From the human T2T-CHM13v2.0 reference genome, Homo sapiens: a DNA stretch of 64,000 nt. The position numbers and the translations under genes were made by a program. Of the stretch, positions 60 through 26,720 are shown one piece after another (the first letter of the stretch is position 1; the number at the start of each line of letters is the position of its first letter). The DNA lies in NCBI RefSeq assembly GCF_009914755.1, contig NC_060933.1; one strand, given 5' to 3'. Below the pieces are notes generated by a model, which searched no databases, was not told the origin of the DNA, and was given only the letters and a program-made list of their open reading frames with translations.

Positions 60-2945
<2,886 letters not shown>

Positions 2946-3520: not shown

Positions 3521-3968
3521 TGTACCTTAGTACATTTCGACTGCAATAGAAAAATACCTTTTTGTTGTGGCTTATAAGCAACATAATTTTATAATTTATA
3601 ATAATATGAACTTATAACTTATAAATTTACTTCTCATAGTTCTGGAGGCTGAGAGGTCTGAAATCAAGGCTCTCAAATATTTGATGTCTGGTGAGGGCCC
3701 ATTTCCTGGTTCATAGATGGTTCCTTCTCTCTGCATCTTCACATAATGGAAAGAGCAAGGTAGCTCTCTGGGGTCTCTTATGTAAGAAAACTACTCATTT
3801 ACTATCCTTAATGTAGTACTAATTTAGTAACCTTATAAAAGAGCCCCAGATCTCTACTTTCATGATCTAAGCACCTCCCAAAAGACCCCATCTCCTAATA
3901 CCATAAGTTTGGGAGTTAGGATTTCTACATAGGAAATTCGAGGAGACACAAACATTCAGACAACAGCA
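3521..3968 (-). mobile_element. MaLR solo LTR (MLT1A-like)
   Basis: TG...CA ends, 'tctcatagttctggaggctgag', 'tctggtgagggcccatttcctggttcatagatgg', 'acacaaacattcagac'. Imperfect 5-bp TSD ttctt/ttctg. Confidence 0.85.
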
Positions 3969-4077
3969 TTCTGTTTTGTTTGGGTTTAATTTGCTTTAGG
4001 AACTGATTAGATTCTTTTTTCTTTTCTAACATAAACACATGGCACTATTACATTTATCTAATTCTTTATTTCTAAAA

Positions 4078-4212
4078 AAATTTTAATTATTATGGATACA
4101 TAATAGTTGCACATATGTATGGGGTACATATGCATACAAGCATACGACATACAATTATCAAATCAGGATTCTGATATTCATCACCTTAACATGTAGAGTT
4201 TCTTTGTGTTAA
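4078..4212 (-). mobile_element. L1MA-type 3' end fragment
   Basis: 'ggatacataatagttgcacatatgtatggggtaca' resembles an antisense L1MA 3' terminus. Confidence 0.65.
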
Positions 4213-4638
4213 TATTGTTTAGTTATCTTAATAAATTGACCCCTTTATAATCAGTGAGTATATTTTCTATCACTAGTAATATATTTCGTTCTGAAATATA
4301 TTTAGTTTGACATTAATATAGTAACTCTAGTTTTCTATAAATTTTTGTTTGTACTACACACACAGATATCTATGTATTTATATTTGCAGTAGAATTTTAG
4401 TAGACAGAATTAGATTTCTGATTTTTCATTGATGTGTATGAATGATTTACATGTAATGTAATGTGATTATGAATAAGCTTAGGTTTAAATATACCTTCTT
4501 GCTATGTTTTCTATTTATCTTATATGCTCCTTGTTCAATTATTTATCCTTTTTTTACATTTTGTAGATTAGTTAAATATGTACTTCATTATTTTGTGTCA
4601 TTTCTACTATTGGTTTACTAATGTACTTCTTTTTTAGG

Positions 4639-4727
4639 TTCTGCTTTAAGGTTTAAAATATAAATACTTCTGTTTTAAGGTTTAAAATATAAATACTTCT
4701 ACTTTAAGTTTTAAAATATAAATACTT
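4639..4727. repeat. Tandem repeat, 3 x 29 bp (ttctgctttaaggtttaaaatataaatac)
   Basis: Copies at 4639, 4668 and 4697, differing by 1-3 nt. Confidence 0.95.
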
Positions 4728-4905
4728 AACTCATCACAGCCTACTTTCAAATAACAGTATATCACTTGATATGCAGTATAATACATTGCCAGTTTTTTTC
4801 TGCAGACACACATATACATCTCATAAAATTTTACTTCTGCCTTAGGAATCTTTCTTATAAATGACAATGGAGGATGGCTGACAATGAAATTCTTTAGATT
4901 TTGTT

Positions 4906-5091
4906 CAGTGCTGAGACAACGTTGAGATGAGCAAATTTTACCTCTGGTGAAAAACTTAATGAGGCACTCTCTCGGGTCACACAAGGCACAAGTCTTGCAC
5001 TCTCAATCTCAAATATATAACTCTGAAAGTGAGTAGCTCTTTAGGTTTTGGGACCTAGTTGTGTCATTTTCTTTACCCTAGTTCCAAACCT
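4906..5091. mobile_element. MER91A-like palindromic hAT MITE
   Basis: Degenerate inverted arms 'aaaacttaatgaggcactctctcgggtc' and 'ctctgaaagtgagtagctctttaggtttt'. Ends 'cagtgctg' ... 'accctagttccaaacct'. Confidence 0.6.
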
Positions 5092-6254
5092 ATTTTTAAT
5101 TTTCTAAAAATAAATGAGCCCTATTTTGCTTTAGTGCTTAAAATTTTCTACTTGTTATAAAAATGTAGATAAAGCTGTTTTTTATTATTTAATTATTTAT
5201 GATTGCTCCATTGTCTCCAAGCTTTCATAGTTTCTGAAGAAAATTGCCCGTATTTGTGTGTTTGTGTGTGTATTTCTTTTGATGTGGATTATTTTTTCAT
5301 CTCTGATGCCTTTTAAGATTTTTCTCTTTATCACTGATTTTCAGAAATTAGACAATAGTTTACCTTGCCATTTTGTCTTTATTTGTGATTCTAATAACAT
5401 TTTGGCAATCGTTTCTTCGAATTTTTGGTTTTGTTCTTCCCTACCACATACTCACACACATACATCCACTCAGTGTTCTTGTTCTTCTGGTACTCCATCT
5501 CTTCTTGTATTATGCTGCTTGATATTGTCAAACACAGTGTGGTTGTTTTTTCAAATGTGTCTATGTTTTCTGTTTTGGATAGTTTATATTGTTATGTTAT
5601 CAAAATCACTGGTATTTTTTCTACAATGGTTAAAGTGCTGTTAAATTTATTCATACATTTTTAATCTAATATAGTTATTTTTTCTGTTTTAGGAGTCTGC
5701 TTGTTTTTATTTCTTTCATTTTTATCTTCTCGTAATATACATATTTTCCCATCTTATTTGAAAAAATAAAGCATATTTTTAACACCTGAATTAACATGTT
5801 TCAACGCTAATTATTATGTTCACCAAAACCAGATATTGTGAATTCTATATTGTTATGTGATGGATTTTGTTGAATTCCTTTTGTATATTTGTATTTTGTT
5901 CTCAAACACAGTTAAATTATTTGGAATCAATTTGATGCTTTTAGAGATTGCTATAAAATTTTCTTAGAGAAGATGTAGAGTTGCTTTAGGTTTAGGAATG
6001 AGCGAGTTCCATCACAAAAGCAGGATTCTTCCAAAGATTCTACCTAATAGCTCACACATTACCCTGTCTTCTACTTTGGTTTGTGGCAACAATAATATTT
6101 GCAGAGCTTTCTGAGCTTTGAGAATTGTTCTTCAAACCCTTTGTGTTGGCATTTTACCCCAGGCTTCAGTTATTTTCTCTCATGTATTCACAGTTTAGTA
6201 TTCAATGAAGGACTCAATAATTTCCTAGGAAGGTCTGCAGACACACGGTCATCT

Positions 6255-6496
6255 GTATTCATTAGCATGGGCTGCTATAACAAAATGCCATAGACTGAGC
6301 AGCTCATAAACCACAGAGATGTATTTCTCAGTCTAACCTCACATGGTGGAAGAGGGAGGGGTCTCTCTGGCACCTTTCATAAGGGCTCCACTCCCATGAT
6401 CCAGTCACCTACAAAATTGCCCATTTTTTAATATTATCACCTTGGTGGTGAGAATTTTAATATACAAATTTGGGGAGGTCAATTAGACCAGAGCAT
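6255..6496 (-). mobile_element. MaLR solo LTR (MLT1A/MST-like), internally deleted
   Basis: 'gggctgctataacaaaatgccatagactgag', 'cctcacatggtggaag', 'atcaccttgg'. Confidence 0.75.
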
Positions 6497-6842
6497 AATT
6501 CTTGGCAGATAAAAGAAGCCATAAGAAAGCTGGTGTGATCAGACCAGAATGAGCCAGAGAGAAGTTTTAAGATACAATAAAATATTAGGCTAGACTATTA
6601 AAGTACTTTGTCATTAGAAATTATATCTTTCAGATGAAATCTACCCAATCCTTGCTTGTACATCTTGCTAAAGTTTTAACTTTTCCATTGATTTCATTAT
6701 ATTTGTCATGTCTTTCCTATCAATTTAATTTTCAATTATCTTCACTTCTTATACATACTGCTATATATTATTTAATCATTCTGCCTTAAATTATTTTGTG
6801 TACAGTTATAATACTTCAGCCTAGTTTACTAGGAACTCATTA

Positions 6843-7175
6843 CAGTTGTTCCTCTGTATTTGTGGGGTACTGGTTCTAGGAACCCTCAGACACAAAAATC
6901 TACAGATGCTCAAGACCCTTCCATAAAATGATGTATAATAGTATTTTTTACACCTACATCCACACTGTCACATACTTTAAATCATCTCTAGATTTCTTAT
7001 GATACCAAGTACAATGAAAATGTTATGTAGTTAGTTATAGTGTGTTCTTTAGGGGATAATGACAAGGCAGAATTCCATATGTGTTCACTTTTTCATAAAT
7101 GTTTTTCCAAATATTTTTGATCCATGGGTGGTTGAATCCACACATGCAGAACCTATGGATATGGAGGGTCCACTG
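6843..7175. mobile_element. MER2 (Tigger-family MITE)
   Basis: TA|cagttgttcctc ... gagggtccactg|TA terminal inverted repeats with TA TSD. Internal 'tactttaaatcatctctagatt'. Confidence 0.88.
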
Positions 7176-7374
7176 TACTTTTTTCTATCCTCCTAACTAC
7201 ATATTGGTTTCTATTTTTGTCTTTATTAAATCTTAAATTGTAGTCATACTACAAATTCGATCTTTTCTATTGTTTCATTTTTTTCTATTGCTTGAACAGT
7301 ATTCTGTTTCTGTTTCAATGCATTAGTATCCACTTATTTATGTTTACCAAAATATTACACAGTCAAATAATTCA

Positions 7375-7715
7375 GGAAGACTTTGAAAATTTAAAGTCAA
7401 CAGATTTGTATTAGCCTCAATTATATCATCTGTAATAAATCAGATTATCCTGTCATTAGGATTAAATATTAAAATCTATTTAAGACATCTTAAAGAATAT
7501 TTGAGATATTATGTATACTTAATATGGATATTTGTTTTCTTCCCTTCATTTTCTGATTTATTTTAGCCTTTTCATTTGTATTGTTTTATGTACCTTACAG
7601 TTACATAAACTCCTTAGTATCTGGAAACTTGTCTTCTTATTTTAATGTGCCATTCATCTCCTTAGCACAATTTCTTACACATATATGTTCTACAAATGTT
7701 TATTAAATGAATTAG
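7375..7715 (+). mobile_element. MIR fragment followed by an L2 3' end
   Basis: MIR core 'gcctcaattatatcatctgtaat'. L2 tail 'cttagcaca...aaatgtttattaaatgaat'. Confidence 0.5.
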
Positions 7716-8780
7716 TGTCAACTACATGCATGCTTTATTCATTAAGCTGTCAAAGGATTGATCTGCTTTACAGCTTTGTCAAACTATAGAACTTTAATTC
7801 TTTTGCCATATTTTAAAAATCATACATGTTTAGGTAATAATAAAATCAATATTCATACTCATAAAATAACAGATTGTAAAAGCATTGTAGGCTAACCACA
7901 TACATTTTGGAAAAGAAACTGAAATTAATTCTTAAATTCTTTCAAATTCTTCATCTTATTTACTCTTTTTGTTAAGTAAATGTTTATCTTGTATTTTAGT
8001 TTTAAACTCTTAGAATCTTCAACAATATAGTTTTTTGTACATAAAATATTTAAATCAACTTAATCTATGTACATGTTATAAACTAAGTTCAAGTAAAATT
8101 ACATAAAATGCAACAATGCATTTTATTTTTCTATTCATATTTTTCTAATAAATCTTGTAAGTTTAAGTAATTATTTTAGTTAATGCTATGAAATTCTACC
8201 TAGGCAGGTTAGGTGTTAATTTCCCAATTTGTATGCAAACTGAACAATTTTCTCCGGGCTCTTCATCATTTCATCTTTCCACTTAACTTTCTCTATTTTA
8301 ACCCAATAATATTTATTGTATTTTCCCCATTTAAACTAATGAATAAAAATTTCCCTCAGTGTAAACTCTATGTTGATGTTTCAAATAGAATATTTTATTC
8401 CCTGTGTGTTTTGAGTAGTAGCACCTTTAATGTTTTATCTATTTATATTTGTACAAGGCATATTACACATCTGAAATGAACACAGTACTAATTAGCATAA
8501 AGTCAATGTTAGCCTTAGACTTTACAGGTAAGTCTACAGAATACAGAAAGAAAAAATATAATGTCATATGTACTTCTTAAACAGTTCTATCAGTGGAAAA
8601 ACTGATGATGCATTCATGTTTTCCTCAATATTTAGTGAGGAGAGCAAAAATGAGTAATAAGGCAAGAAAAAATATCCACTGCGTCACTGTAACAGGCACT
8701 AGATGATGAGGTCATAGAATGTATTCATCTTTATTTATTCAGCAATTAGCTCCATACCTAGCACATAAACCCTCCCATCT

Positions 8781-9123
8781 CAGGTCTCAGTTCACTTGTG
8801 CTTCTGTAACAAAATAGCTGAGACTGATAAGAACAGAAACTTGTTTCTCACAGTCCAGGAGGCTGAAAAGTTCAAAACCATGGTTCTGGCAGGTTTGGCA
8901 CCAAGTGAGGTCCCAGTTTCTGCTTCTAAAATGGTAACTTGAATGCTGTGTCCTTACATTAGCTAGTTCCCTTCAGCCCTTTTGCAATGCACTAATCCCA
9001 TTTATGAGTACAGAGTCCTCATGGCCTAATTACTCCTAAAGGCCTGACTTCTTAATACTGTTGCATTGAGGATTAAGTTTCAAAATGGCTTTTAGAGGGG
9101 AGACAAACATTTAAGCTAAAGTA
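8781..9123 (-). mobile_element. MaLR solo LTR (MLT1A-like) inserted in an L2 3' end
   Basis: 'ttctcacagtccaggaggctgaaaagttcaa', 'gcactaatcccatttatgag', 'ggattaagtttcaa'. L2 tail 'tttgaatgaatgaa' follows. Confidence 0.8.
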
Positions 9124-10779
9124 TAATAATCCATAATTTTTGAATGAATGAACAAAAAGACACTTGCATTTAAATGTGAAAAGGTAGATACTTTCGGTGT
9201 CAGTTATTTTCTGTACAATTGTGATTATTCCTCATAAAAATTCAGAGCAATCAGTTGGCTTTCAATTAAATTTACACATTAGTTATAAACATTTTAAATG
9301 TTAACTCTGTTTCTACTGTTCATGATATTTAATATGTATATTAATTTTACAAGAATTACTTAAATATTTTTCTTCCAATTTTCTAATTCTCTTTCCCTTG
9401 TTGAAATGAGCAAACACACAAAATATCAAGTGACAGACAATGCATTGCTAATGTCTTACTTTGGTAAGATACTTTCATTAGTATTTCGAATAGAACTGAG
9501 ATTTTTATTTTTATATATTTTTTAACCAAACCTGACTCATATTATGCATGATCTAAAGTATTAATGTAATACAAAACCATTGTATTTCTTGGCACAAAGA
9601 AAAAACGTGGGTCATGTCAAACACCTGCAATGACAGTAAAATCATGTCACAGATAAGCTAATTATGTTGAAAAATGATTATGCACACACTATGTAAAGCA
9701 TTGTCCTTTTCCTTTGTTGGAGGGCATTTATTCATAGACATCATGTGTACTTTCTTCCCAAAGGGTAAGGTTGACCTAGAACCCTATGGACGACCCTTTA
9801 TAGTTAAGCTTGCCAACTACTTGTCAGAAATGATTAGTGAGAAATGTAGGAAAGAAAATTTCCCCTGTTGATAACAGGGGGCAAATAGAAGATGCCCTGA
9901 AGTTGTCATAAGGAATCACATTTTTTTCAATAAGAATATTTTTTATTTGATAATATCTAATATCACAGATCAACCTTTATTTATACATATTCTAGGCATG
10001 TGTTGAACTTGACAGGTTTTGGTAATAGAAAATTCTGTGGCAACTCACAAAAGAGTATGTGTGCATTGTAATCATCTTTATTATAAATAATAACTGTGTC
10101 TTTTTTTGATAAAATGAAGATATAATAAATCATGATTTCCCCTCAATCATATCCTTTAGAAACTGATTTTATGTGTCTTTGGATTTATAATAATCCCAAA
10201 CTCACATTTTATGTTAAAATACTCATTAAAATGCGATAATTTATTACAACTTTATTTTGGATTATATTCTGAATGTTTTACAACATGAAAGCTAAAGAAT
10301 GCTATACATTTTTTGAAACAGATTTATATAAGCCTCACAGTCTGTATTATGAAATTATTAATGTTAGAGTAACATTTTGATCTACTAGATTCATAAAATT
10401 AGTGAGAATTCTTCAGCTATTATTTTGAATCCTCTCTTTATATCTCTTAATAATACAGATAACACAGATTTGAGCTACAGGAAAATGTAATGTGCATTGT
10501 GTTTGAACAAAGTGTGTTATAATTTTGGATGTACATCAACCTATACTGTATCCCTATGTTGTGTAAGACTGAATATCCTAGATCATATTGGATTATTACA
10601 GTCAATAATATTTTACATTAAACATCAAAAAATAATATGGCATTCATTTACAACCCAGAAAAATGAGTAACTCCCAGGAGAAATTTAGTTTTCATTGCTC
10701 CTTATGCTAACAACTTTAAAGTTCAAATGCTAACTTTCTATCTCCATTTTATTTAGAATGTATAATAAATCTTTCATGA

Positions 10780-11118
<339 letters not shown>

Positions 11119-11411
11119 TCTATTTTTGAAAGTTACCTTTTGTCATTTTTTTATCTGCAGTAGTGTGGATTAGAAACCTGGCTCAGTCCTACCACTAAAA
11201 TAATTCTTAAAAGTTGGTTGAAACATTAAAAAAATCTTGCTTTAGTGTCACAATTATCAGGCAAGAAGACAACAATTTTATGAAAATTAAGGTTTTACCT
11301 TGAGAGCATTCTCTGGTCCTGATAAGGATGAGGCCATGTTTCTTGGGACTGTAAAAAGCAGGGGACCAGAGACAAAGTTCAAAGTCCAGCCAAATTGGAA
11401 GTGTAGTAAGA

Positions 11412-12216
11412 GAACACTCTTACACTATTGGTGGGAGTGTAAATTAGTTCAACCATTGTGGAAGACAGTATGGTGATTCCTCAAGGATCTAGAACTAGAA
11501 ATACCATTTGAGCCAGCAATCTTATTACTGGGTATATACTCAAAGGATTATAAATTATTCTACTCTAAAGACACAGGCACACGTATGTTTATTGCAGCAC
11601 TATTTACAATAGCAAAGACTTGGAACCAACCCAAATGTCCATCAATGATAGACTGGATAAAGAAAATGTGGCACATATACACCATGGAATACTATGCAGC
11701 CATAAAAAAGGATGAGTTTGTGTCCTTTGCAGGGACATGGATGAAGCTGGAAGCCATCCCTCTCAGCAGACTAACACAGGAAAACCAAACACCACATGTT
11801 TTCATAAGTGGGAGTTGAACAATGAGAACACATGGTCACAGGGAGGGGATCATCAGGGAGGGGCTGCAGGGGGTGGGGGCCTAGGGGAAGGATCACATTA
11901 GGAGAAATACCTAATGTAGGTGATGAGTTGAAGGGTGAAGCAAACCACCATGGCACATGTATACCTATGTAACAAAACTGCAGGTTCTGCACATGGACAC
12001 AGGGAGAGGAACATTACACACCGGGACCTGTTGGGGGTGGAGGGCAAGGGGAGGGAGAGCATTAAGACAAATACCTGCATGTGGGGCTTAAAACCTAGAT
12101 GACGGGTTGATAGGTGCAGCAAACAACCATGGCACATGTATACCTATGTAACAAACCTGTACGTTCTGCACATGTATTCCAGGACGTAAAGTGAAATATA
12201 AAAAAAAAAAAAAAAA
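11412..12216 (+). mobile_element. 5'-truncated L1PA (PA7-like body joined to a PA8-like 3' end) with two 3'UTRs
   Basis: ORF2 C-terminus (ORF 11585-11818), two successive 3'UTR segments joined at cacatg (~11990-11995), poly(A). Confidence 0.9.
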
Positions 12217-12229
12217 GAATGCCCTTTTC

Positions 12230-13570
12230 TGGGGTTCTCACTAATATGACCTGTGTAACTTGAAAATCCTCAAGACAGAAATTTAAAGTGATCTCATTCT
12301 GTTTATAACCCTGGGCCCTTAGTACAAACAAATTTATATAATCCTTTTGGGAAACCTATTTCAATTCTATCCTAAAATTATTTGCATAAATATACTTCTA
12401 TTAGTTAGGAATTGACAGTAAAACAAAACAAAACACACAGAGAAAGATGGTGCATGAAAAGAATATAGGAGGAAAACAGGGAGATAAAAGAATCACATGA
12501 AGAAAGACTCCAGATACTGGAATTATAAGAATGTATAACAAACAAGTTTGAATTAAGTAAGAATTAAAATGAATGATTTAAAAGTTTAATTCAAACAACG
12601 GTAAACACACAACTGACACATTCATAATATGTTAGAGATAGCTAAAGTGAGAATAACCACATAACGTAAAACATAGTTAAATTCACTTTGACTATTAAGA
12701 GATGTATAAAAATGAACAATAAAGAGAAAGGATTCAGTGATATGAAAGACAGAATGAAAATGACTATCATATATTAAACTGGAGTCTAATATATTCATTA
12801 GTGAGATTTACTGACATCCCTAATGAAAGACATCAAATTCTCAGATTCAGGAGAAATAAGACATTACACTCAAGATACATAAGATGAATTCATTCCTCGG
12901 CACACCTAAGTTTTCATCATAACCTGTACCTTCAATCATCTTCATTCTTCCTGACCTGATCTATTTTTCTCATCGTATTTACCACCTTCAAACATATGGT
13001 ACACATCCTAGTTACTTTGGGTATCTTATATTACAATATAATCTCAAAACAGATTTTGTTGATTTTATTTACAAGATGTAACCAAAGGGCCTAGATTATC
13101 TTTATAGCATAGCATATGTTCAAAATTTATTACCAAATAAATATAAAGTACATTTATGAAAGGTGAAGGAGAATATAAAACAGAGGGAAGATCTTCAGAA
13201 CTACCACAACAAAATGACACATAACTTAAATGTCAAAATACCAACACTGACTTCTTATCAACAGCAATAAAAAGTAGGAAAAAATTTGGAAAATATCCTC
13301 AATGAGTTTAGACACACTTCTATACATTAGAGGTTTATAAAACACAAAAACTCCTTTTATAAATGAGTCAAAATAATGACATTTTAGACAAAGAATAACA
13401 GAAAATTTATCATCCAAAAGCACCTTCCAAAGAAACCTCAAAAGACAAATTTCAAACAAAGGAAAATGATCACAGATAAAAGATTTGGGATAAAATAAAT
13501 AATAATGAGAAAAATAGAATATATATGGGAGGTATAAAAAAGAAAATAAAATTTACCTCAATACAAAATT
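12230..13570 (+). mobile_element. Old L1M 5'/ORF1 remnant, with a possible L2 3' fragment at ~12910-13145
   Basis: A-rich degenerate ORF1 motifs 'gaaagacatcaaattctcagattcaggag', 'actgacttcttatcaacagcaat', 'gacattttagacaaag'. Confidence 0.5.
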
Positions 13571-13574
13571 GAAA

Positions 13575-14246
13575 TGTGTAAAGATGTTTTGGTGGGGGTC
13601 TCCATTGCTCTTCAGCTTTGATTATTTATTTAAAAAACTCTCAGAACTCAGAGAAGCAATTATACTCATGTTTACAGTTTATTAAAACAAAAGGATGCAG
13701 AGTCGTATCAACAAAGGAAAAAGATTCTCAGGGCAAAGTCCAGGAGACTCCAGGAACAAACTTACAAGTGTCCATCACAGCAGAATCACATGCAGATACA
13801 CTTCAGTCTCCCAGTAAAGCTGCATACAACCACACGTGAATTCTTGGCAATTAGAGCAGCTTATTTATTCTTTGATGTCCCAGGTTTTTATTGGTGGTTA
13901 ATCACATAGGCATGCAATGCCCAAGTGGCAAAACTTGGCAAATTCAGCTTCCTTTCCATGATCCCTCTAGAACAAAACCAGGCATTCAGCATAAATCATA
14001 TCTTAGAATAAACGTATCTGGTTAAATTGATACCACATGGTTCAAATAAATACAGCATGGCTCAGGGCCTCAGGCATATAAAGTCAGTCATTCACCATAA
14101 ACCCAAGGCCTCAGATATACAAAAACACTCTTCACGGTAGGGCTATTTCCAGAACTCAGAGGCTAGGTAGTCCTAAAAACAAACCTTACCTTTGAATGTG
14201 CAGGGTTGAAGAAACCCTGGCCTGCTGAGTTAACACATTCTTGCCT
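13575..14246 (-). mobile_element. MER77/MER21-family LTR
   Basis: 'ctcagaactcagagaagcaattatactcatg', 'cagggcaaagtccaggagac', terminal 'ccctggcctgctgagttaac'. Confidence 0.7.
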
Positions 14247-14249
14247 AAT

Positions 14250-15600
14250 CCATATTTATTGTCCCTGGTCTAATCTCTCCTGTAGCAAAACAATCATATT
14301 TTTCTGAGCATCTACATTGAATATGGCATTTATATGACAGTAACAACAGTAATATTAACATGAATATGCCTAGCATTTTATGGACACAGTGTAGGGTAAA
14401 GATTGATTTTTAAAAATTACTAATGCATCCTACAAGCCCATTACATACACTTTAGTATTTTGTACAAACAAAATTACTCATTCCTCCTCTCAATCTGCTT
14501 TTATTTTTACTTTTTGATAAATCTGTGCAGAACTATTTAGCATTGAAATTAGATAATGGTTAGCTAAATTCTGTTTTCTCAGGCCATTTATTATTCACCC
14601 AGATTACATTCTGAAGAGGCTTTAACTCAATATCTTAATACATTTGATTATCAATATAAGCATTATATAACTTCTCTACATAAGATAGTTGAATCTTACC
14701 AACAATGCTAGTGTAATGTCATATTGCAGTATGATCATGTTACAATTCAGTTTTATTACAGAAAAAGTTATTACGAATGATAGAGCTATTTGTTACAGCT
14801 ACTCAACATAATTGGTTCTTGTCTTTATACCGTATAGTATTATAAATAAGTGTTATTACTACTCACCATGATTTGATTATTTCTGGGTTTCTAATGGGTT
14901 GTGGACTTAGACAGTCACCCTGTCTTAGTTCACAGGCCCTAATTGACAATGGTCTCTACTATATGCTGTCTTACACCAGGATACACTCCCTTCCTATAGA
15001 CAAGACACAAGAATAAGAATAGTTTATATCTCTGCTACCTGTACTACAGGATGTCTTATCCTTATCTATTCTTGGGGCAATGGCAATAACAATGAATTAA
15101 TATAAGTTATGAGTGACCTCAGAGATGGGGTCCCTAAGATTATATAAATGTGTCCTTCTGCATCTAAGAAGAACCATTACCCTATGGTTATTTAGGCCTC
15201 CATCTGTGTTAAAGTGATAAAGTGATGCTATTGAGTCATAATACAAACTCATTACCAGTGTTGGGTCCTAGCATTATCCATCATTAATTGTTGAGTCTAC
15301 CTTACCAAGTTCACTAAAACTTCATTATTTTTTCCAGGTTGAATCCCATCCCTTCCTCTCTCATAGATGAGAATTCCCTCTAATCTATTTATTTTAGTTA
15401 ATAAATCTTCTTTCCTTAAAAGCCATTCATGATTAAAAATGAATTCAGCTTTTCTCACAATTCCTAGATCAGCATCTATCTCCCTGAAGGTTTTTTTCTG
15501 TTTGTAGGCCAATGCTTAACCCAAGAGGGTTGTTGTCATTGTATACTAGATTTAACTGGAATGAGGAACCATGTTTTACACTCCAGACTGTTTGGTTCTC
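14250..15600 (-). mobile_element. Possible degraded ERV internal region next to the MER77-like LTR
   Basis: Lies upstream of the minus-strand LTR. ORF 15297-15512 has a 'WLLR' segment loosely like ERVL-class gag remnants. Weak. Confidence 0.3.
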
Positions 15601-15649
15601 AGTATGAGGATAAAAATAAGAAAAAACAAAACAACAAACAAACAACAAC

Positions 15650-16478
15650 AAAAAACAAGAGTTCTCTACAATTTTCGAGAAACAGAAGAGGAAGAAATCC
15701 TTCTCAATTCATTTTATGAAGCAAGCATGACACTTAAACAGAAGAAGACAAAGATGATAAAAAAAAAGAAAAGGAAAACAAACAAAACTTTAGACCAACA
15801 TAACCTAGATGCAAATCTACAAATATACCCTAGATGCAAAATCCTCGACAACTTGAATACGACACTATGTAAAAAAGTGACACATGACCAAGCCATGTTT
15901 ATTCCAGAAATGCAAGACAGTTGCAATATTTTAAAAAATCTAATAATATAGTTCATCACATTAATATTCTAAAATAGGAGAATGCATGATCAGTTCAATA
16001 AATGCAGGGGAAAAAGACACTATTCAACAGTTACTTGTGAGAAAAATTCAGCAAACCAGAAATAGCAGAAAATTCCTTCATCTTGATAAAGAGCATACAA
16101 AAAATCCATCATATTTAGCTGTGAAGCACTGAATGTTTTCCACATGTATGCTCAGGAATAAAGCAAAGATGTTTGCTTTTATCACTCTTTTTCAACATAA
16201 TACTTAGAGTTCTATCCAGTGTGTAAGGAAAAAAAGGAAGAATAAAATAAATGCAGACTGGAAAGAAATAAGTAAAACTGTTCCTATTTGTAAATAATAT
16301 GATTACATATGTAGAAATTTATACAACATTTAGGAGAGAGAAGGAATGTAGAAAAGGGAGAGGAAGGGGGAGGCAAAAACAAAGGGGAAGGAGAAAGTAA
16401 AAGAACAGTGGAAGGAGAAGCAGTGTCTCCTAAAATTAAGAAGGATTTAGCAAGATTAGGACAAAAGGTAAAAACAGG
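15650..16478 (+). mobile_element. Old L1M ORF2 fragment (sense)
   Basis: ORF 15571-15951 has 'NSFYEAS' and 'HDQAMFIPEMQ', the degenerate L1 ORF2 region upstream of RT. Confidence 0.8.
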
Positions 16479-16893
16479 TTTCCTGATATTTTTAATTGCA
16501 TTTCAATAGCTTTCCAAACATAAATATTTCTCAGGTAGTTGAATGCTTTGGTCAATTTCGAGAATGATGGAAGGCTGCTTTAATGAATTTCTAGTGGCCT
16601 TTTGTGCAGAGGATTTGCTGGTCTTTTCAAGTGACCGTAGTCCACATTGATGGGTTGATTGAATATGGAAACCATCTTGAACTCCCAAGATAAACGCCAA
16701 TTAGTAATGATATATTTTACAAACACACGTGCATGCACACACATACACACACAGACATGAGAGGATTTAATTGGATAATATTTTGCTGAAGTTTTTGAAA
16801 TCTAAATTCATCATCAAAATACATATTTGTCTACAGGACATTTTCTTGCAATGTCTGTTTTATGGTTTTGGTATGGGGATAATGGTAGACTCA

Positions 16894-18161
<1,268 letters not shown>

Positions 18162-18462
18162 GAAAAGTGTTTCCTCTTTTTTATTTCTTAAACTTTTGTG
18201 TAATGTATAAATTATATCTCCTTAAATATTAGTAAAATTTGTCAGTTCATTTATCTAGGTGGGTATTAATAAATTTAAAACAGATATATAGGGATGTGCA
18301 CTTTATTGCTTTCTTTTTGAGTTTGCCTTAGTTTGTATCTTTTGAGGGATTTATACACTTAATCTAAATTAACTAATTTACATTTATAAATTTCATCATG
18401 GTATTCATTTAGTTATCCTTAAACTGTTGTAGGACAATAGAAATGTTACTTCTATCATTCTT

Positions 18463-18765
18463 TTTTTGTTGTTTATTTGTTTTGAGACAGAGTCCCGTTC
18501 TGTCGCCCGGGCTTGAGTGCAGTGGCCTCATCTCTACTCACTGCAAATTCCACCTCCCAGCTTCAAGCAATTCTTGTGCCTCAGCCTCCCGAGTAGCTGG
18601 GAATACAGGCATGCGCCATCACGCTCGGCTAATTTTTGTATTTTTAGTAGAGACAGGGCTTCACTATGTTGGCCAGGCTGGTCTGGAACTCCTGACCTCA
18701 AACGATCCGCCTGCCTCGGCCTCCCAAAGTGCTGGGATCACAGGCATGAGCCACCACCCCCAGCC
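18463..18765 (-). mobile_element. AluS (Sx/Sz-like)
   Basis: Full dimer with a perfect 15-bp TSD acttctatcattctt (18448-18462 / 18766-18780). Confidence 0.96.
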
Positions 18766-21142
18766 ACTTCTATCATTCTTAAAATTTGTAAATTATTTAT
18801 TTCCTATTATTTTCTCCATAGTCTGGCCAGAGATTTAACAATTTTATTGATCCCTTCAAAGATCTAAATTTAGTTTAATTTACTTAGCTATATAATTTTT
18901 CTCCGTTTAATGTTGTTTATTTCTTCATTAACCTTTATTATTTTCTTCTTTCTGATTGCTTCAGAATTAATTTGTTCTCATTTTTATAATAACAAGTTGG
19001 AAGCTTTCATCATAATTTCAAGGTAATTTTTCTTTTCTAATGCAAGCTCTTAATGGGATAGATTTTTCCCTAAACACAGAAATTTCCACATTTTGATATG
19101 TTATACTTTTTTAAATTTCTCTTACTTTTGGCTAGGTTCATGTTTAAATATACATATGTGCAAGAATATTTTCCCTTGATTTATATGGATTTAGAGGTTA
19201 AAAAAAGGCAAAAAAAAATATTTTGGAAATTTCTAGGAGACTTAGTTCACCATAATTGTTACATAATTGTGCATATGTTGCAAGTAATGTATTGAGAAAA
19301 GTATTTATATCTGTATACATGTTTGGTCCTTAATGATGAAATTAATGCACAGTTGTCTAACTGTAATAATTTCCTTATAATCACACTAGTTTTCCTTTGG
19401 TGCCACAAGATGATGAATCTCACTTTAGTGTGACCAAGCAAAATGAGGTACAAAAACAGTCCAATCAATGTGAAAATATCTCAAATTCACATGAATTTTA
19501 AAAATATTTTATATGTAAATTAAATTAGAAATTAAATATATATAATATATTTTATTTCAGAAATGTTTGCTTGCCTTTTGGAACTCAAAGTTCAAAACCT
19601 TCTATTGTCATCTTTAAATAACTAATTTTTAAGTTAATTTCTACTTGTTTCTATGAAAATACTACCACACAATGTGGAGATAAAGAAAACATTTACAGAA
19701 AAATTGTCCATATGGACACATTTTAAACAGATGATCTAATTAGCATAATAGCCACCAAACTGGTAAATAGTTTTGTTGATTTGCTGCTTAATCAGCATCT
19801 ATTCAGAATTCTGTAATATTGTTTAGTAAAACAGTTTATTTCCATCCATAAATGTATTTTATAAATTTATGCCCAGTAAACTTCCAGGTAAACCATCAAA
19901 ATATTAACTGTTTTCTACAAGTGATGGTCTTTTTTTTTAAGCTGGTTTCTATAATGAATTGATGAGAGTGAATGAAGATTAAAATGCTTATTCTGTAATA
20001 AAAGCCAATGCCAGCATGCCGATATATAATCTCTATAGATCAAAAAATATTCATGCCTTATTCTCAGATTTTTAATAGTGGCTCTAAGCAGTCTTAAAAA
20101 TTTATTATTTAGACACCTTATCCTATATTTTAAAAATATTTTCTTAGTATACTGTGGATGTTATACAAGTCATATAATGGATAGAGAATTTCTTACATAA
20201 ATTTACAATATAATTTTTTTAAATAAAACTTTTGTGAAATTATTTTCAAATGTTATAAATGTTAATGAGTTTTGTTATATTGGTTCCAATATTTCTCATA
20301 TATGGAAAATGTCATTTTCCATGGGAATTAATATTTGGAACTGGTGTTTAAGAAAAACCATGTTTGATGTTGGAAAATGCTATGTCCGGTATAACTATAG
20401 ATGTTTGGAAAGCAGCTCAGTTATGCTAAAGATAAAGAAAGGAGAGAAAAATGACAGAAGGGGAGGTTTGAACAAAACAAAATAATACCTGAAAATGTTG
20501 AATGGATATGTAATATTTGTGAATGTTTATGTTCTCTATTTCACCATTATTTAAACATTTATATTTTCAAAGGGAGACAATAATTATATTTTGAAATCAT
20601 TTTATTTTTTTATAGAGTGCTGTATTTTTTCTTTTCAATTTCAATTTGGTGAGCAAACAAAATCAGTCAGAATATTATACATAATTAGGTTTCCTTTTTG
20701 AGATTTGTTGAAACTCTTTATCCTTTATGTATGTATTTCAAGTAGTATAATAAAAAAGAAATATAAAATGATTAGATATACATAAAAGTATTGTAGGTTA
20801 TGTTTTTCATATTTTCTTTCTTTTAATGTATTTTGCAGATATAGCCATTCCAGATTATGATTTCACAAACTAAGATGATTCTCAGTAGGGAAGCGTTACT
20901 GCATGTCGTTTTCATCAAAGGGAGCTTAGTTTATTTGCCTGTCTGAATATTGACATTATATTACTAATTTACACATTGGGGAAAGGGTCAAGAGAACTCC
21001 AAATTTTTGTTGACTTGATATTAACCTGAAAAGGGAATGTTAATAACTGACAAAATATATCCACAGTAGTTAGACATCAAGTTATGTTTATTTTTTTAAT
21101 CTACTGCATATTATTGAATTATTTAGATAGATAGATTTATTA

Positions 21143-21505
21143 GATGTACAGGAAATAGAATTCACTGGTGGGCATGCGTAAAGAGGGGGCAGCTCTTTTC
21201 TAATGCAGGGCTAGCTGCTTGTCCAGGGGCCCATGATTCCAGGGCTATATTTGGCCCCACAGCCATCCAGGATGAGTTGTTTCTCAGCCACCAAGTCTTA
21301 AAATGTATATGCATTAAACTTAGTAAAATCGCACTTCTTTGAGATGTGGCTTTTTGGGCATTCACTGAACTTGAATTTGGCCCTAAATAAGGCCTCAGTC
21401 ACATGCTCCAGGGTTTGCAGCTTGGTATGGATGAACATGGCCAATGTGAACTCTGACCTCTGGGTCCTGAGGCTTTCCAAAGGCATACTACATCCGGTCT
21501 TAAAC
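21143..21505 (-). pseudogene. RPL10: RPL10 processed pseudogene fragment (last two exons spliced, plus 3'UTR)
   Basis: Minus-strand translations 'AFGKPQ...RVHIG', '[24 protein letters not shown]...[13 protein letters not shown]', 'LVAEKQLILDGCG' and 'GPLDK...ALH*' match the RPL10 C-terminus. The 3'UTR end 'aattctatttcctgt' also matches. Frameshifted. Confidence 0.92.
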
Positions 21506-21554
21506 CTAGACTAGGGAAAGCACTAGATCCAAGACATAAATGTCCAATGGCAAA

Positions 21555-21652
21555 GGCTGTTGTACGCAAGGAACAGGCTGCTGTACACTACCTAGGATGC
21601 TGCTGTTTGCAGCCCTTGCACACCAGGCCCCATGTGGCTTAATTGATTGTAG
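21555..21652 (-). ncRNA. SNORA70: SNORA70 (U70) H/ACA snoRNA retrocopy, degenerate
   Basis: Minus strand 'caattaagcc...catgggg...gtgtgc...ggctgcaaacagcagc.tcct.ggtagtgtac.gcagcctgtt' matches U70. H box ACAGCA at 21601-21606, ACA box at 21558-21560. Both hairpins have deletions (~98 nt versus ~135 nt). Confidence 0.85.
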
Positions 21653-21925
21653 AAATTATTTTATATATTAAGTTTTTGGGGATTCGTATCTTTTATTCAA
21701 GATAGCTAAATGTAATTTATATTAGACCATATACAGTAAGTTGTAAATTATAGAAGTTGTGCTTATCAAAATCATATTCAGTGGGCAATATGTGGCCTTT
21801 AATATAATGAAGTTTACTGATAAAAATTAAAATAAAATAATGTGGTTTTGTAGTGCTCTTGTATGTCAACTAAAACAAATTAACAAAACCTATTGAAACC
21901 CATAATCATTTAGACTACCTACTTA

Positions 21926-22214
21926 CACTTTGGGAGGCCAAGGTGGGCAGATCACCTGAGGTCAGGAGTTCAAGACGAGCCTGGCCAACATAGTGACATC
22001 CCATCTTTACTAAAAGCACAAAAATTAAACAGGCGTGGTGGTGCATGCCTGTAATTTCAGCTACTCAGGAGGCTGAGGCAGGGAGAACTGCTTGAACTTG
22101 GGAAGGGGAGGTTACAGTGAGCCAAGACTGGGCCACTGAACTCCAACCTGGGCGACAGAGGGAGACTCCATCTCAAAAACAAACAAACAAACAAACAAAA
22201 ACACAACAAAAAAA
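21926..22214 (+). mobile_element. 5'-truncated AluS
   Basis: Starts at 'cactttgggagg', (CAAA)n tail, TSD actacctactta/actatctactta. Confidence 0.93.
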
Positions 22215-23799
22215 ACTATCTACTTAAATACCATTCTATTAAAATAAATATTTTTCTGTGATCTTAGATTTGTTTTGTCTCAATAATATAAATAGTGTAT
22301 TGGTTGTCTCAAAGTGTTAAATGGAAGCATATTTTATGGCATTGCTGAAATATCTACCAACTTTTCTTACTGTAAGTTATGCAATGGTGCATTGATTAAT
22401 GCATTGAAACTTGTTAAGCAGTCTGCATGTCTGAAAAACCAAGGTTCAGAGGTATGTAGGTTAAATCCGGCAATCAAATATCAGAGAGATATTTCAGAAT
22501 ATTATTTTTGTGTACCAGAAAACACTTTTCAAAAAAAAAAAAAAGTAAGGGCATTAGGAAGGCATTGTAAGGTTAATCTTTTCCAGCAAAGCTATTACAT
22601 TGATTTTTCTGGAGTTCTTTAGTTATAAAAAGTAGAATGTAGTTATAGGATCTAGTCAGCATTAAATTGATTGAAAAAATGAAAAACACTGTTTCATTTT
22701 TAAATAGATTAACAATTAAGCAAGTTGTTCATGTTGTCCCACTGATATACTAGAATATGCTACATTCTTTTGGGCATCTTTTAGACCATAGGGCTAAAAT
22801 GTTGAGAATGACAGAGAGACAATTAGGAGCTCAGCACAAAGCAAAATGTTATGAATCAGGAAAATAAATAGAACAGAGATCAAAATTAGACAGATGCAGA
22901 ATTGGAATGATACTGAAAACAAGAGATGGAACTGCAGAAAATACTATGGCAGATCATTCATTCCTTTGAATGGTGAAAGTAGTTAATACAATGGCTAACA
23001 ATTGAAATGAAAAACCAGACCCAGATGAAAAAATGCAAACCAGTAAACTTACCTAGTCCTATTATTTTACTCAATTGTAGGAAATACATGAAAAAAAAGT
23101 TGTTCATTATGAATCCTTTTTTCTAACATGGGAAGAAGTCACCACTAAACCTTTCTCATTTTTTTACTCAAATGTTTGTGTTTTCTCATAGAACTTATAA
23201 TTTTAATTTATTTTTCAATATATGTTTCCCGTACAGTCTAGTTGGATTCATAGTTGCAATGTTTCATGTGGTATATTTGCTCCCTATGGAACAGAACATA
23301 ACATTAATCTTTAGATGTGTCACTAGAGAGATTTGTATATATCCACATAAATCTACAGTTGCAACTAGAAAAATTATCCTGTGAAAATTTTGTGATATGA
23401 ATGTCTTTCAACTTTTTAAAAAGTAAAGAGAAAATGATGAACAAATATGAGTTGGAAATCAGAATGAACAAATCATGAAAATATAGTGTACCCCTTCAAA
23501 AATTTTGAAAATTAAGAGAAATCGGTAGAACAGCTGTATTATCATTTACAAAAATGTTTCTCTACCTATAGAACAAACAATTACTTTGTCCTCTAATTTC
23601 CAAATAACTTACAGAACATTTATTTCCTACTGTCACTGGAATGGCAGGCTGGCAGGCTGAGTTGGTAGCCCAATTGGTTCCTCACATCAAAAGATTCCCT
23701 TTATTATTTCCTTATTTTCTCTTTAATTCTGGCACTCCTTCATGATTGAACTTACAGATGTTCTTTTGTCTACTAATTTTCGAGTAAGCCTGTGCTCTC

Positions 23800-24235
23800 T
23801 ATAACTTTCAGTCTCAATATCCTTCTACCATCAGCCTTTTGTCTAAACATTCCTATTCTGGTTTGTTTCCCTGAACTCTTGACATCAATCTCTGTTCCTT
23901 CAATATTCTGTTTCTTCTACTGGAAGCATTCTTTCCCAGATTTCACCCACTTTACTCTTCTCAATCTCTGTGTCTGAGTTAAATGCTTCCTTAGGTGTCT
24001 ATGTAGGATTGTCTGTCCATCTGTAATTTTTCTATATCTCTCATGTTAACATACTTATATCCTTTACTGAAAAATGTCTCCTTTAAAAAAAATCAATGTG
24101 TTTGTTTACTTTCTTAAAATGCCCTCTTAAACTGCAAGGTCAAAAAAGGTAAGTATGATATTTGGATATTAATATCTACCACTTAATACAGAAACTATTC
24201 TAGCACTTGTATAGGCAGTATAAGACATAATTTTA
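23800..24235 (+). mobile_element. L2 fragment
   Basis: Degenerate L2 3' motifs 'tggaagcattctttccca', 'taaactgcaagg', 'ctagcac'. Confidence 0.4.
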
Positions 24236-24312
24236 GAACTCTAAAATAAAAACTCATAAACTGAAGTTAAATATCCATTTCCCACTGCTATCTCCTTTTC
24301 CTTTTAACACAT

Positions 24313-26720
24313 TGATATCATTCGGATCTGTGTCCCCACCCAAATCTCATGTCAAACTGTAAGTCCCACTGTTGGAGGTGGGGCCTGTTGGGAGGCAATT
24401 GGATCATCGGGCGGTTTCTCTTAAATGGTTTAGCACCATCTCCTTGGCGCTGTTCTTGTGACAGTGAGTGAGTTATTGTGAGTCTGGTTGTTAAAAGTGT
24501 ATAGCACCTCCCCACCTCTCACTCTTCTTCCTGCTTCCAGCCATGTGAAGTGCTGGCTCCCCCTTCACCTTCTGCCATGATTGTTAGCTTACTGAGGCCC
24601 CCGCAGAAGCCCAGCAGATGCATCATGCTTTCTGTATAACGTGCAGAACCATGAGCCAATTAAACTGCTTTTCTTTATAAATTACCCAGTCTCAGGTATT
24701 TCTTTAGAGCAATGTAAGAAAGGACTAATATAGAAAATTGGTAGAGGAATATGATATTGTTGTAAACATACAGGAAAATGTGAAAGTGGCTTTGAAACTG
24801 GATAGTGGGCAGAGATTGGAAGGGTTTGGAGAGATCAGAAGAAGACAGGAAGATGAGGGCAAGTTTTGAACTTACTAGAGTCTTGTTACATTGTTGTGAC
24901 CAAGCTACTGATAGAGACACACAATGAAGTCCAGGCTGAGGAGGTCTCAGATGGAGATAAGGAACTTAATGGGAACTGGAGCAAAGGTCACTTTAGTTAG
25001 GCATTAGCAAAAAGGTTGGCTGCACTGTGGGCCTGCCCTAGGGATCTGTGGAATTTTGAACTTGAGAGTACCTCAAGTTCTGGTGGGTATCTGGTGGAAA
25101 AAATTTCTAAGCAGCAAAGCATTCAGGAGGTAAGCTCACTACTTCTGACAAACTATTTTGATGTGTGTGAGCAAAGAAATGACCTCAAACTGAAACTTAT
25201 ATTTAGAAGGGAAGCAGAGTGTAGAAACTTGAAAAATTTGCAGCCTGGCCATGTGGTAGAACAAAAAGCCCATTTTCAGGAGAGAAATTCAAGCAAGCTG
25301 CAGAAACTTGCTTAACTAAAAGGAAGGCACATGCTGATAGCCAAGAAAATGAGGGATACCCTCCAGGGCATTTCAGAGACCTTTGTGGCAGCTCCTCCCA
25401 TCACAGGCTCAGAGGACAACGAAGGAAGAATGGGACACTACTACATGCATCTCATCTGTTGCAGCTCTAGCCATGGCTCCAAGTGGCCCAGGTACAGCTC
25501 AGGATGCTGCTCCAGAGGGTTCAATCCATAAGTCTTGATGGCTTCCATGTGGCATTAAGCCTGAGGGTGCACAGAGTACAAGAGTTGAGGCTAGATTTCA
25601 GAGAATGTACGAACAAACCTAGATGTACAGTCAGAAATCTGCTGCAGGGTCAGAGCCCTGATGGAGAATCTCTACGAGGGCACTGAGGAGGGGAAAGGTG
25701 GGGTTGGAGCCACCACACAATGTCCCTACTGGACCACTATCTAGGGGAACTATGAGAAGAGGGACACTATCTTCCAGACCCCAGAATGGTAGATCCACCA
25801 GCACTTGTAGCGTGTGCCTGGAAATGGTGCAAGCACTCAACACCAGCCCTTGAGAGCAGCTGTCAGAGCTGAACCCTGCAAAGTCACAGGAGTGGAGCAG
25901 CACAAGGCTTTGGGAGCTCACCCCTTGCAGTGGTATACCCTGGATGGCGTCAAAGGAGATTGTTAAGCTTTAAGACTTAATAACTTTCCTACTGGGTTTC
26001 AGACTTGCATGGGGCCCGTAGCCCCTTACTTTTGGCCAATTTCTCCCTTTTGAAATGGGAGTATTTACCCAATCCCTGTACCCCCATTATACATTATATC
26101 TTGGGAGTTTTTTTTTTTTTTAATTTTACAGGGTCTTAGGCAGAAGGGGCTTACCTCATCTCAGATAAGACTTTAGACTTTGGATGTTTGAGTTAATGCT
26201 GAAGTGAGTTAAGACTTTGGGGGACTGATGGGAAGGCATGATTATATTTTGCAAACTGAGAAAGACATAAAATTTGGGAGGGACTAGGGCAAAATAATAT
26301 GGTTTGGATCTATGTCCCCAACCAAATCTCATGTCAAATTGTAATACCCAGTGTTGGAGGTGGGGCCTGATGGGAGGTTATTGGATTGTGGAGTGGTTTC
26401 TTTTTAATGGTTTAATACCATTTCCTTGGTGCTATTCTTATGATAGTGAGTGAGTGAGTTATTATGAAATCTGGTTGTTAAAAGGGTGTAGCACCTCCTC
26501 ACCTCTCACTTTTCTTCCTGCTCCCAGCTATATGAAGCACTGGCTCCCTCTTCATTTTCCCACCATGGTTATACATTTCATGAGGCCTCCCCAGATGCCC
26601 AGCAGATGCAACATTCTTTCTGTACAGCATGCAGAACTGTGAGTCAGTTAAACCTCTTTTCTTTATAAATTACCCAATCTCAGGTATTTCTTTATAGCAA
26701 TGCAGTAATGGACTAATACA
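24313..26720 (+). mobile_element. MSTA-like MaLR provirus (5' LTR 24313-24732, internal region, 3' LTR 26295-26720)
   Basis: Two similar ~420-bp LTRs, typical MaLR internal sequence, polypurine tract before the 3' LTR, TSD cacat/cacct. Confidence 0.93.

What the first reader, a model, noticed from the sequence alone, without database searches (positions are those of the whole stretch)
21117..21661. Fossil of a snoRNA-capped, intron-retaining, polyadenylated RNA: SNORA70-intron-RPL10 chimeric retrocopy
Seen on the minus strand: a SNORA70-like sequence starting at the snoRNA 5' end (21652), with H and ACA boxes; ~50 nt of intron ending in AG (21507-21506); RPL10 coding sequence from 21505 with the next intron already removed (...AAA|AGCCACATCTCAAAG contiguous); the 3'UTR; a decayed A tail turning into (TAGA)n; and a candidate TSD aattattt (21117-21124 / 21654-21661). 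Established: SNORA70 is hosted in an RPL10 intron, and snoRNA retroposons carrying downstream host exons are a described class. Inference: the template was neither mRNA nor mature snoRNA, but a 5'-trimmed RNA protected by the H/ACA snoRNP and polyadenylated (SPA-like), present in the ancestral germ line. Deletions in both hairpins suggest this copy is not a working guide.
Basis: partly seen in the sequence, partly recalled or inferred. Interest (0 to 1): 0.8.

Follow-up and report, generated by a model that had tools for sequence, protein, structure and literature searches.

The report
Old SNORA70–RPL10 retrocopy, a known type
This is a decayed retrocopy of an RNA that began at the SNORA70 snoRNA and ran through the last two RPL10 exons to the poly(A) site, an already published type of snoRNA retroposon, and the copy in this window arrived by later DNA duplication from chromosome 4.

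Summary
On the minus strand there is a SNORA70 remnant (21652-21558; Rfam 44.6 bits, cut-off 40). It is followed by the 52-nt tail of the RPL10 penultimate intron, the last two RPL10 exons with the 75-nt last intron exactly missing, the 3'UTR up to the normal poly(A) site, a decayed tail and an 8-nt target-site duplication.

Weber 2006 (PMC1687206) named these Type-3 U70 snoRTs, counted 30 in human and proposed the same 5'-trimmed, polyadenylated template. A 2025 long-read study (PMC12152556) detected the RPL10-SNORA70 3' transcript itself.

In CHM13 I found 28 such loci:
- 18 start at the snoRNA 5' end.
- 10 are truncated inside the snoRNA.
- None extends upstream.
- All that reach the exons lack the last intron.

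Two corrections. This copy is the most diverged of the family. The window locus is not the insertion site: window 1-24600 is a ~95% duplicate of chr4:135.09 Mb, with eight further 97-99% paralogs on chr9, 13, 14 and 21. The 5'-hairpin deletion arose after that duplication.

Ordinary finding, low interest.

The parts
21654..21661 (-). 5' copy of the candidate target-site duplication AAATAATT
   Evidence: Read directly. It abuts the first base of the insert. Chance is about 1%.
21653..21653 (-). First base of the insert (T = parent 2301, one base before Rfam model position 1)
   Evidence: Among the 9 copies with clear duplications, 5 begin at parent 2301 (4 with TCTGCAG, 1 with CCTGCAG), 2 begin at 2302 and 2 are ambiguous within 2300-2302. 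Alignment.
21558..21652 (-). SNORA70 (U70) H/ACA snoRNA remnant; positions aligned to the H and ACA boxes retained, upper parts of both hairpins deleted
   Evidence: Rfam RF00156 at 44.6 bits (GA 40), model 1-135. Parent scores 161.8 bits. The fold is no better than shuffles, z = -0.07.
21506..21557 (-). Complete 3' tail of the RPL10 penultimate intron (parent 2437-2485), ending in AG
   Evidence: Alignment to the parent gene.
21352..21505 (-). RPL10 penultimate exon (parent 2486-2647), with an 8-nt deletion and broken frame
   Evidence: uL16 match. Frames listed.
21141..21351 (-). RPL10 last exon (rest of coding sequence plus 3'UTR; parent 2723-2938), joined directly to the previous exon. The 75-nt last intron is absent and AATAAA has decayed to AGTGAA.
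   Evidence: The uL16 match spans the junction.
21125..21140 (-). Decayed poly(A) tail, ATAA followed by (ATCT)n; longer in the chr4 copy and variable among paralogs
   Evidence: Alignments of five of the eight 97-99% paralogs break here.
21117..21124 (-). 3' copy of the candidate target-site duplication AAATAATT
1..24600 (.). Segmental duplication derived from chr4:135088994-135109903 (inverted relative to the window) that carries the retrocopy
   Evidence: blastn of the window against 70 kb of chr4: blocks of 492, 14099 and 6496 nt at 95.0-96.0% identity.

Best explanation
The element is a Type-3 SNORA70 (U70) snoRNA retroposon.

Origin of the template (inferred). In an early mammalian germ line an RPL10 transcript kept its penultimate intron, which hosts SNORA70. 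Its last intron was spliced out and it was polyadenylated at the normal site. Everything 5' of the snoRNA was removed by 5'->3' degradation that stalled at the assembled H/ACA snoRNP.

Insertion (inferred). The LINE-1 machinery reverse-transcribed this snoRNA-capped, polyadenylated RNA and inserted it at an A/T-rich site in what is now chr4q28.3.

Later history. The copy decayed: a 21-nt deletion in the 3' hairpin, frameshifts, and a tail that turned into a microsatellite. About 24 kb around it was then duplicated to pericentromeric chr9 and on to acrocentric short arms. During that spread the 5' hairpin lost 15 nt. The window holds one of these DNA duplicates. It is a pseudogene with no working guide.

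Shown here: the anatomy, the family-wide 5'-end pile-up, the removal of the last intron and the duplication history.

Inferred: snoRNP protection, which nuclease acted, L1 as the agent, and the age.
For: Anatomy: the element is colinear with the parent gene from snoRNA nt 1 to the poly(A) site, with the last intron missing.

Family: 28 loci in CHM13, not counting the 9 paralogs of the chr4 copy.
- 18 start at parent 2297-2309. The 9 with clear target-site duplications start at 2300-2302.
- 10 are truncated at 2327-2359.
- 0 of 24 non-parent hits to a query with 150 nt of upstream intron go beyond query position 146.
- All 28 carry the intron tail. The 27 that reach the exons lack the last intron.

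Young copies show 12-17-nt target-site duplications and A tails, the usual L1 signature.

If the SNORA70 intron is retained, the RPL10 frame hits a stop in the first codon lying wholly inside the intron (...AGADR*). Such a transcript would be a nonsense-mediated decay target. That fits the translation-dependent decay route cited for 3'-snoRTs in PMC12152556 (passages read).

Literature:
- Weber 2006 describes the class, reports 30 human U70 copies (18 entire, 12 partial) and proposes the cleavage-plus-trimming model (sections 8 and 14 read).
- PMC12152556 reports long reads with 5' ends two bases upstream of H/ACA snoRNAs, and ddPCR detection of the RPL10-SNORA70 3' form.

Duplication:
- Window 1-24600 matches chr4 at 95-96%.
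- Eight paralogs are 97.1-99.3% identical over about 3.5 kb.
- The 15-nt deletion is shared by all 9 non-chr4 copies.
Against: - The tail is not a clean poly(A) run.
- The target-site duplication is only 8 nt in very A/T-rich flanks (21% G+C). Its chance expectation is about 1%, not negligible.
- The site before it (TA|AAAT) matches the L1 endonuclease consensus quoted by Weber (tt|AAAA) only in part.
- No empty site could be examined, because no other mammalian genome was available.
- DNA cannot separate a template whose 5' end was at the snoRNA from reverse transcriptase always stopping there.
- One copy (L041) matches the parent 5 nt further upstream (4 of 5 bases). Its target-site duplication is unresolved.
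- chr4 as the ancestral site rests on general knowledge of pericentromeric duplications. The chr4 copy has private deletions of its own (6 and 23 nt).
Confidence: 0.9

Rival explanations
1. The template was a longer intron-retaining RPL10 mRNA, and the L1 reverse transcriptase regularly stopped at the folded, protein-bound snoRNA. The 5' end would then reflect enzyme arrest, not the RNA's own end.
For: - 10 of 28 copies end inside the snoRNA at nt 26-58, at or within the 3' side of the 5' hairpin. That looks like arrest at a structure, and Weber attributes these copies to RT arrest.
- Full-length intron-retaining RPL10-SNORA70 transcripts exist (PMC12152556).
Against: - 0 of 28 copies read through into the 338 nt of intron upstream.
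- The 9 copies with resolved target-site duplications start within a 3-nt window, 2300-2302. This lies next to the RNA 5' ends seen by long reads, two bases upstream of H/ACA snoRNAs.
Confidence: 0.06
2. The window copy is an independent retroposition at this chr9 site, or a DNA duplicate of part of the RPL10 gene.
For: The element is flanked by a short direct repeat at this locus.
Against: - The same flanks, the same direct repeat and about 21 kb of surrounding sequence are shared with chr4 at 95-96%. Eight other loci share at least 3.5 kb around the element at 97-99%. The locus was therefore copied as DNA after the insertion.
- A gene-level DNA duplicate of RPL10 is excluded by the missing last intron and the end at the poly(A) site.
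Confidence: 0.02
3. The chimera arose by template switching of the L1 reverse transcriptase from RPL10 mRNA onto mature SNORA70, as in U6-L1 chimeric retrocopies (that comparison is recalled from general knowledge, not from a call).
For: A small RNA is joined to an mRNA-derived piece inside one target-site duplication.
Against: - The snoRNA is joined to the exon through the full, colinear intron tail (parent 2437-2485) in all 28 loci. A switch onto the mature snoRNA would not carry that tail.
- The junction is the same in every copy.
Confidence: 0.01

Closest known systems
Type-3 U70 (SNORA70) snoRNA retroposons, 'snoRTs' (Weber 2006, PLoS Genet, PMC1687206; sections 8, 14 and 15 read)
   Same: It starts at the mature snoRNA 5' end and holds the whole downstream intron, the two processed last RPL10 exons, a tail at the mRNA poly(A) site and a target-site duplication. 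The proposed template is also the same: cleaved pre-mRNA trimmed to the snoRNA 5' end, then spliced and polyadenylated.
   Different: Nothing in kind. This copy is the most diverged I found (K2P 0.26-0.28 against 0.02-0.24 for the others). It has been multiplied about tenfold by segmental duplication.
Box H/ACA retrogenes of the 'U70m' type (Luo and Li 2006, NAR, PMC1802619; passages read)
   Same: Retrogenes made from partially processed, exon-containing host transcripts.
   Different: Their table of 21 U70 copies (U70b-v) lists none on chr4 and one on chr9 (118.98 Mb, not pericentromeric). This diverged copy was probably below their identity cut-off.
RPL10-SNORA70 3'-snoRT RNA (snoRNA-retaining transcript, 3' form; PMC12152556, 2025; passages read)
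   Same: [quoted passage not shown] It was detected by nanopore reads and ddPCR.
   Different: That is an RNA seen in somatic and cancer cells. The paper contains no word beginning 'retropos' or 'retrotranspos'. This locus is a DNA fossil of the same kind of molecule in an ancient germ line.
SPA lncRNAs and the cytoplasmic SNORD86/NOP56 SPA (as summarised in the review PMC11028025; passages read)
   Same: A 5' snoRNA end with a 3' poly(A) tail. The snoRNP blocks 5'->3' decay.
   Different: The SPAs in the passages read come from readthrough of host genes, and the named cytoplasmic example is capped by the C/D snoRNA SNORD86. Here the cap is an H/ACA snoRNA and the body is the 3' end of a ribosomal protein mRNA. 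The route (nuclear XRN2 or cytoplasmic NMD/XRN1) is not testable from DNA.

Membership tests
Type-3 snoRNA retroposon (Weber 2006) | 5' end coincides with the 5' end of the mature snoRNA | tested here: met
   The Rfam alignment begins at model position 1 = window 21652. The upstream flank has no similarity to the parent intron.
Type-3 snoRNA retroposon (Weber 2006) | Contains the entire intronic sequence downstream of the snoRNA | tested here: met
   Window 21557-21506 aligns to parent 2437-2485 up to the AG.
Type-3 snoRNA retroposon (Weber 2006) | Followed by the processed (spliced) 3' exons of the host gene | tested here: met
   A 75-nt gap falls exactly at parent 2648-2722. The uL16 protein match runs across the junction.
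Type-3 snoRNA retroposon (Weber 2006) | Poly(A) tail at the host mRNA poly(A) site | tested here: inconclusive
   Homology ends at parent 2938. The other copies that reach the gene's 3' end stop matching at 2903-2940, 21 of them at 2929-2940, with poly(A) following in the young ones. What follows here is ATAA plus (ATCT)n, not a clean A run.
Type-3 snoRNA retroposon (Weber 2006) | Target-site duplication abutting the insert, with an L1 endonuclease-like site | tested here: inconclusive
   An 8-nt AAATAATT abuts both ends. Chance is about 1%. The cleavage-site match is partial (TA|AAAT). No empty site was available.
Working H/ACA guide RNA of the SNORA70 family (Rfam RF00156) | Score above the family's gathering threshold | tested here: met
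   44.6 bits against 40. Of the eight paralogs, seven score 42.4-45.2 and L006 is not listed.
Working H/ACA guide RNA of the SNORA70 family (Rfam RF00156) | Hairpin-hinge-hairpin-tail with intact upper stems closing both guide pockets | tested here: not met
   The apical 26 and 33 model positions are reduced to 10 and 10 nt. The fold is no better than shuffles, z = -0.07, and is not two hairpins.
SPA-type RNA (5' snoRNA-ended, 3' polyadenylated) as the template | RNA 5' end defined by a snoRNP block to 5'->3' exonuclease; uncapped | not testable with these tools
   Only the DNA copy is available. The 5'-end pile-up is consistent with it.

The most novel reading that the evidence does not exclude
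This is the oldest surviving fossil of the SNORA70-capped, polyadenylated RPL10 3' fragment. It would show that this RNA was already made in germ cells around or before the placental radiation. The 28 snoRNA-start copies far exceed the processed RPL10 pseudogenes: I confirmed 7 among the 8 further hits examined, and Weber counted 12. That excess would mean snoRNP-capped decay fragments are privileged LINE-1 templates, much more so than the far more abundant mRNA. In the passages and search listings I saw, no one linked the 2006 retroposons with the decay-derived 3'-snoRT/cytoplasmic SPA RNAs described since 2018.
Probability: 0.3. Interest if true: 0.4.

Novelty: already known. Interest (0 to 1): 0.12.

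Why it matters
It matters little as a discovery. The class, the SNORA70 family, the mechanism and the RNA itself are all in print.

The re-analysis on a complete genome has some value.
- It confirms the 2006 census: 28 loci here against 30 then.
- It shows that no copy reaches upstream of the snoRNA.
- It dates this copy as the most diverged of the family.
- It shows that the ten chr4/chr9/acrocentric 'SNORA70 pseudogenes' (nine reach Rfam's cut-off; the window's is RefSeq's LOC124900590) are one ancient insertion multiplied by segmental duplication. That is worth knowing when counting snoRNA pseudogenes or mapping small-RNA reads.

Tried and rejected
- Earlier findings of this scan were not open.
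- Supplements of Weber 2006 (Figure S3 and the tables listing each U70 copy) could not be opened. Whether this exact locus was listed there stays open.
- Weber mentions a distant U109 snoRT with five chr9 copies and one chr4 copy. I looked for it in the chr4-derived part of the window with Rfam at E<=1. There was no SCARNA18 or U109 hit, only Alu-derived SRP/mir-1268 matches and weak chance hits.
- Single-sequence folding of the remnant, the chr4 copy and the parent was not informative beyond the Rfam alignment. Even the parent has z = -1.3.
- I searched for a paper that ties Type-3 retroposons to SPA, 3'-snoRT or NMD fragments. None was seen. In one search none of the 12 listed papers (of 60 matching) held the term 'SPA lncRNAs'. 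One search returned 2 papers, both on trypanosomatids. One search returned 2 papers, and I read passages of one, which did not make the link. This covers the open-access library only.
- Two searches failed on term syntax and were reworded.
- DNA duplication of the gene and template switching were considered and rejected (see the rival explanations).

Full report
**What is there**

I read window 21900-20900 on the minus strand. Rfam places SNORA70 (RF00156) at 21652-21558. The match covers model positions 1-135 and scores 44.6 bits against a gathering score of 40. The apical parts of both hairpins are shortened, from 26 to 10 and from 33 to 10 positions. This is the stretch RefSeq annotates as LOC124900590.

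A search of the window's own assembly with 21700-21100 found the parent on contig 23, the X chromosome. I fetched that locus as L031. It carries a full SNORA70 (161.8 bits) at L031 2302-2436.

Alignment of the window element to L031 shows the following.
- Similarity starts at the first snoRNA base. Window CTACAATCAATTAAGCC aligns to parent CCGCAGCCAATTAAGCC.
- The upstream flank is unrelated A/T-rich DNA.
- The intron tail (parent 2437-2485) is present and ends in AG at 21507-21506.
- The penultimate exon follows (21505-21352).
- The 75-nt last intron (parent 2648-2722) is exactly absent.
- The last exon and 3'UTR run to parent 2938 (window 21141).

The 70-residue open frame 21510-21298 matches ribosomal protein L10/uL16 residues 135-180 across the exon junction, with E = 4e-11. 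The frames are otherwise broken.

After the last templated base comes ATAAATCTATCTATCT, then AAATAATT (21124-21117). The same word lies at 21661-21654, directly before the T at 21653 with which most family members begin. The chance of such an abutting 8-mer recurring is about 1%.

**The family**

I used a query holding 150 nt of upstream intron, the snoRNA and the start of the exon. I then ran blastn of each fetched locus against the parent. Together these give 28 loci with SNORA70 sequence, not counting the paralogs of the chr4 copy.
- Eighteen begin at parent 2297-2309.
- In the nine with clear target-site duplications (8-17 nt) the insert begins at 2300-2302.
- Ten begin at 2327-2359, which is snoRNA nt 26-58.
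- None begins between 2360 and the 3' splice site at 2485.
- None extends upstream. In one search, 0 of 24 non-parent hits pass query position 146.
- All 28 carry the intron tail.
- The 27 that reach the exons lack the last intron. They stop matching the parent at 2903-2940, 22 of them (this copy included) at 2929-2940. An A run follows in the young ones.
- The exception, L053, ends at 2479, just before the splice site, followed by poly(A).

Seven of the eight further hits that I checked against the whole parent locus are ordinary processed pseudogenes with every intron removed.

One copy (L041) matches 5 nt further upstream (4 of 5 bases). Its target-site duplication is unresolved because an Alu sits at its 3' end. 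One locus (L045) shares the 3' flank of another (L034), so it is a secondary copy.

**What is in print**

Weber 2006 (PMC1687206; sections 8, 14 and 15 read) defines Type-3 snoRTs exactly this way.
- U70 lies in the penultimate RPL10 intron.
- Of 42 human RPL10 processed pseudogenes, 30 are Type-3 U70 snoRTs (18 entire, 12 partial snoRNA).
- The explanation given is endonucleolytic cleavage of the pre-mRNA followed by exonucleolytic trimming to the snoRNA 5' end, while the 3' part is spliced and polyadenylated.

Luo and Li 2006 (PMC1802619; passages read) list 21 U70 copies, none at this locus.

PMC12152556 (2025; passages read) reports polyadenylated '3'-snoRTs'. Their 5' ends lie two bases upstream of H/ACA snoRNAs. 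The paper validates the RPL10-SNORA70 3' form by ddPCR and cites a translation-dependent decay route.

In line with that route, reading the RPL10 frame into the retained intron gives a stop in the first codon lying wholly inside it (...AGADR*).

**History of this copy**

Its non-CpG K2P distance to the present parent is 0.279. The chr4 relative is at 0.256. These are the largest values of the 28 loci; the others range from 0.023 to 0.244.

From recalled figures, about 0.17 substitutions per site have accumulated in the human lineage since the human-mouse ancestor. That would place the insertion around or before the placental radiation. This is an inference that I could not test.

Window 1-24600 aligns to chr4:135088994-135109903 at 95-96% identity. 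Two insertions interrupt it in the window. Eight other loci on contigs 9, 13, 14 and 21 are 97.1-99.3% identical over about 3.5 kb.

The hairpin deletions can be ordered against that duplication.
- All nine non-chr4 copies share the 15-nt deletion in the 5' hairpin. The chr4 copy keeps those bases and scores 61.3 bits.
- The 21-nt deletion in the 3' hairpin is common to all, so it is older than the duplication.
- The chr4 copy has private deletions of 6 and 23 nt.

The retroposition therefore happened once. The window copy is a DNA duplicate.

**Verdict**

However, the class, the family, the mechanism and the RNA are already described. The remnant is not a working guide: both upper stems are gone and it folds no better than shuffled sequence. 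Interest is low.

Noticed in passing
L031 2303 and 2354 (parent SNORA70 on contig 23), compared with L010-L067: The outermost pair of the basal stem is C-G in the present parent. It is U-A in the retrocopies: T in 17 of 18 full copies and A in 25 of 28. The direction is uniform, always TG at one site and CA at the other, which argues against independent CpG decay. It points to a compensatory U-A to C-G change in the parent after the youngest insertions. Position 2364, in the stretch between the two hairpins, likewise reads A in most copies but C in the parent and the two youngest copies.
   Followed up: partly
L040, L045, L047, L050, L052, L053, L055, L011, L030, L067: The ten 5'-truncated copies all begin at snoRNA nt 26-58 (parent 2327-2359). 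None begins in the following 126 nt up to the splice site. This clustering suggests a second discrete stop, for the reverse transcriptase or for the exonuclease.
   Followed up: partly
L045 (C12:75.66 Mb) and L034 (C1:201.24 Mb): L045 is 5'-truncated and carries the tail, target-site-duplication word and about 90 nt of 3' flank of L034. It is therefore a secondary copy of the L034 locus, by readthrough retroposition or DNA duplication, and not an independent copy of RPL10.
   Followed up: no
L053 (C17:30.72 Mb): This copy ends at parent 2479, six bases before the 3' splice site, followed by a long A run and no exon. It resembles Weber's Type-2 form, a polyadenylated intron fragment.
   Followed up: no
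window 490-2928 and 16928-18162: Two stretches interrupt the chr4 homology in the window. Each holds a 617-nt match (83-84%) to the same element at chr4:135100344-135100950, so they are probably insertions of one repeat family after the duplication. Past 24600 only short matches of 300-380 nt at 72-81% remain, so another duplicon begins there.
   Followed up: no
window 21125-21136: The (ATCT)n run derived from the tail differs in length among paralogs. Alignments of five of the eight 97-99% paralogs break there, and chr4 has about five more units than the window.
   Followed up: no
window 22026-22177, 26948-27232, 10834-11117, 18482-18764: Alu elements, seen as Metazoa_SRP and mir-1268 matches. 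Only the one at 26948-27232 reaches the SRP gathering score (142.6 bits).
   Followed up: no
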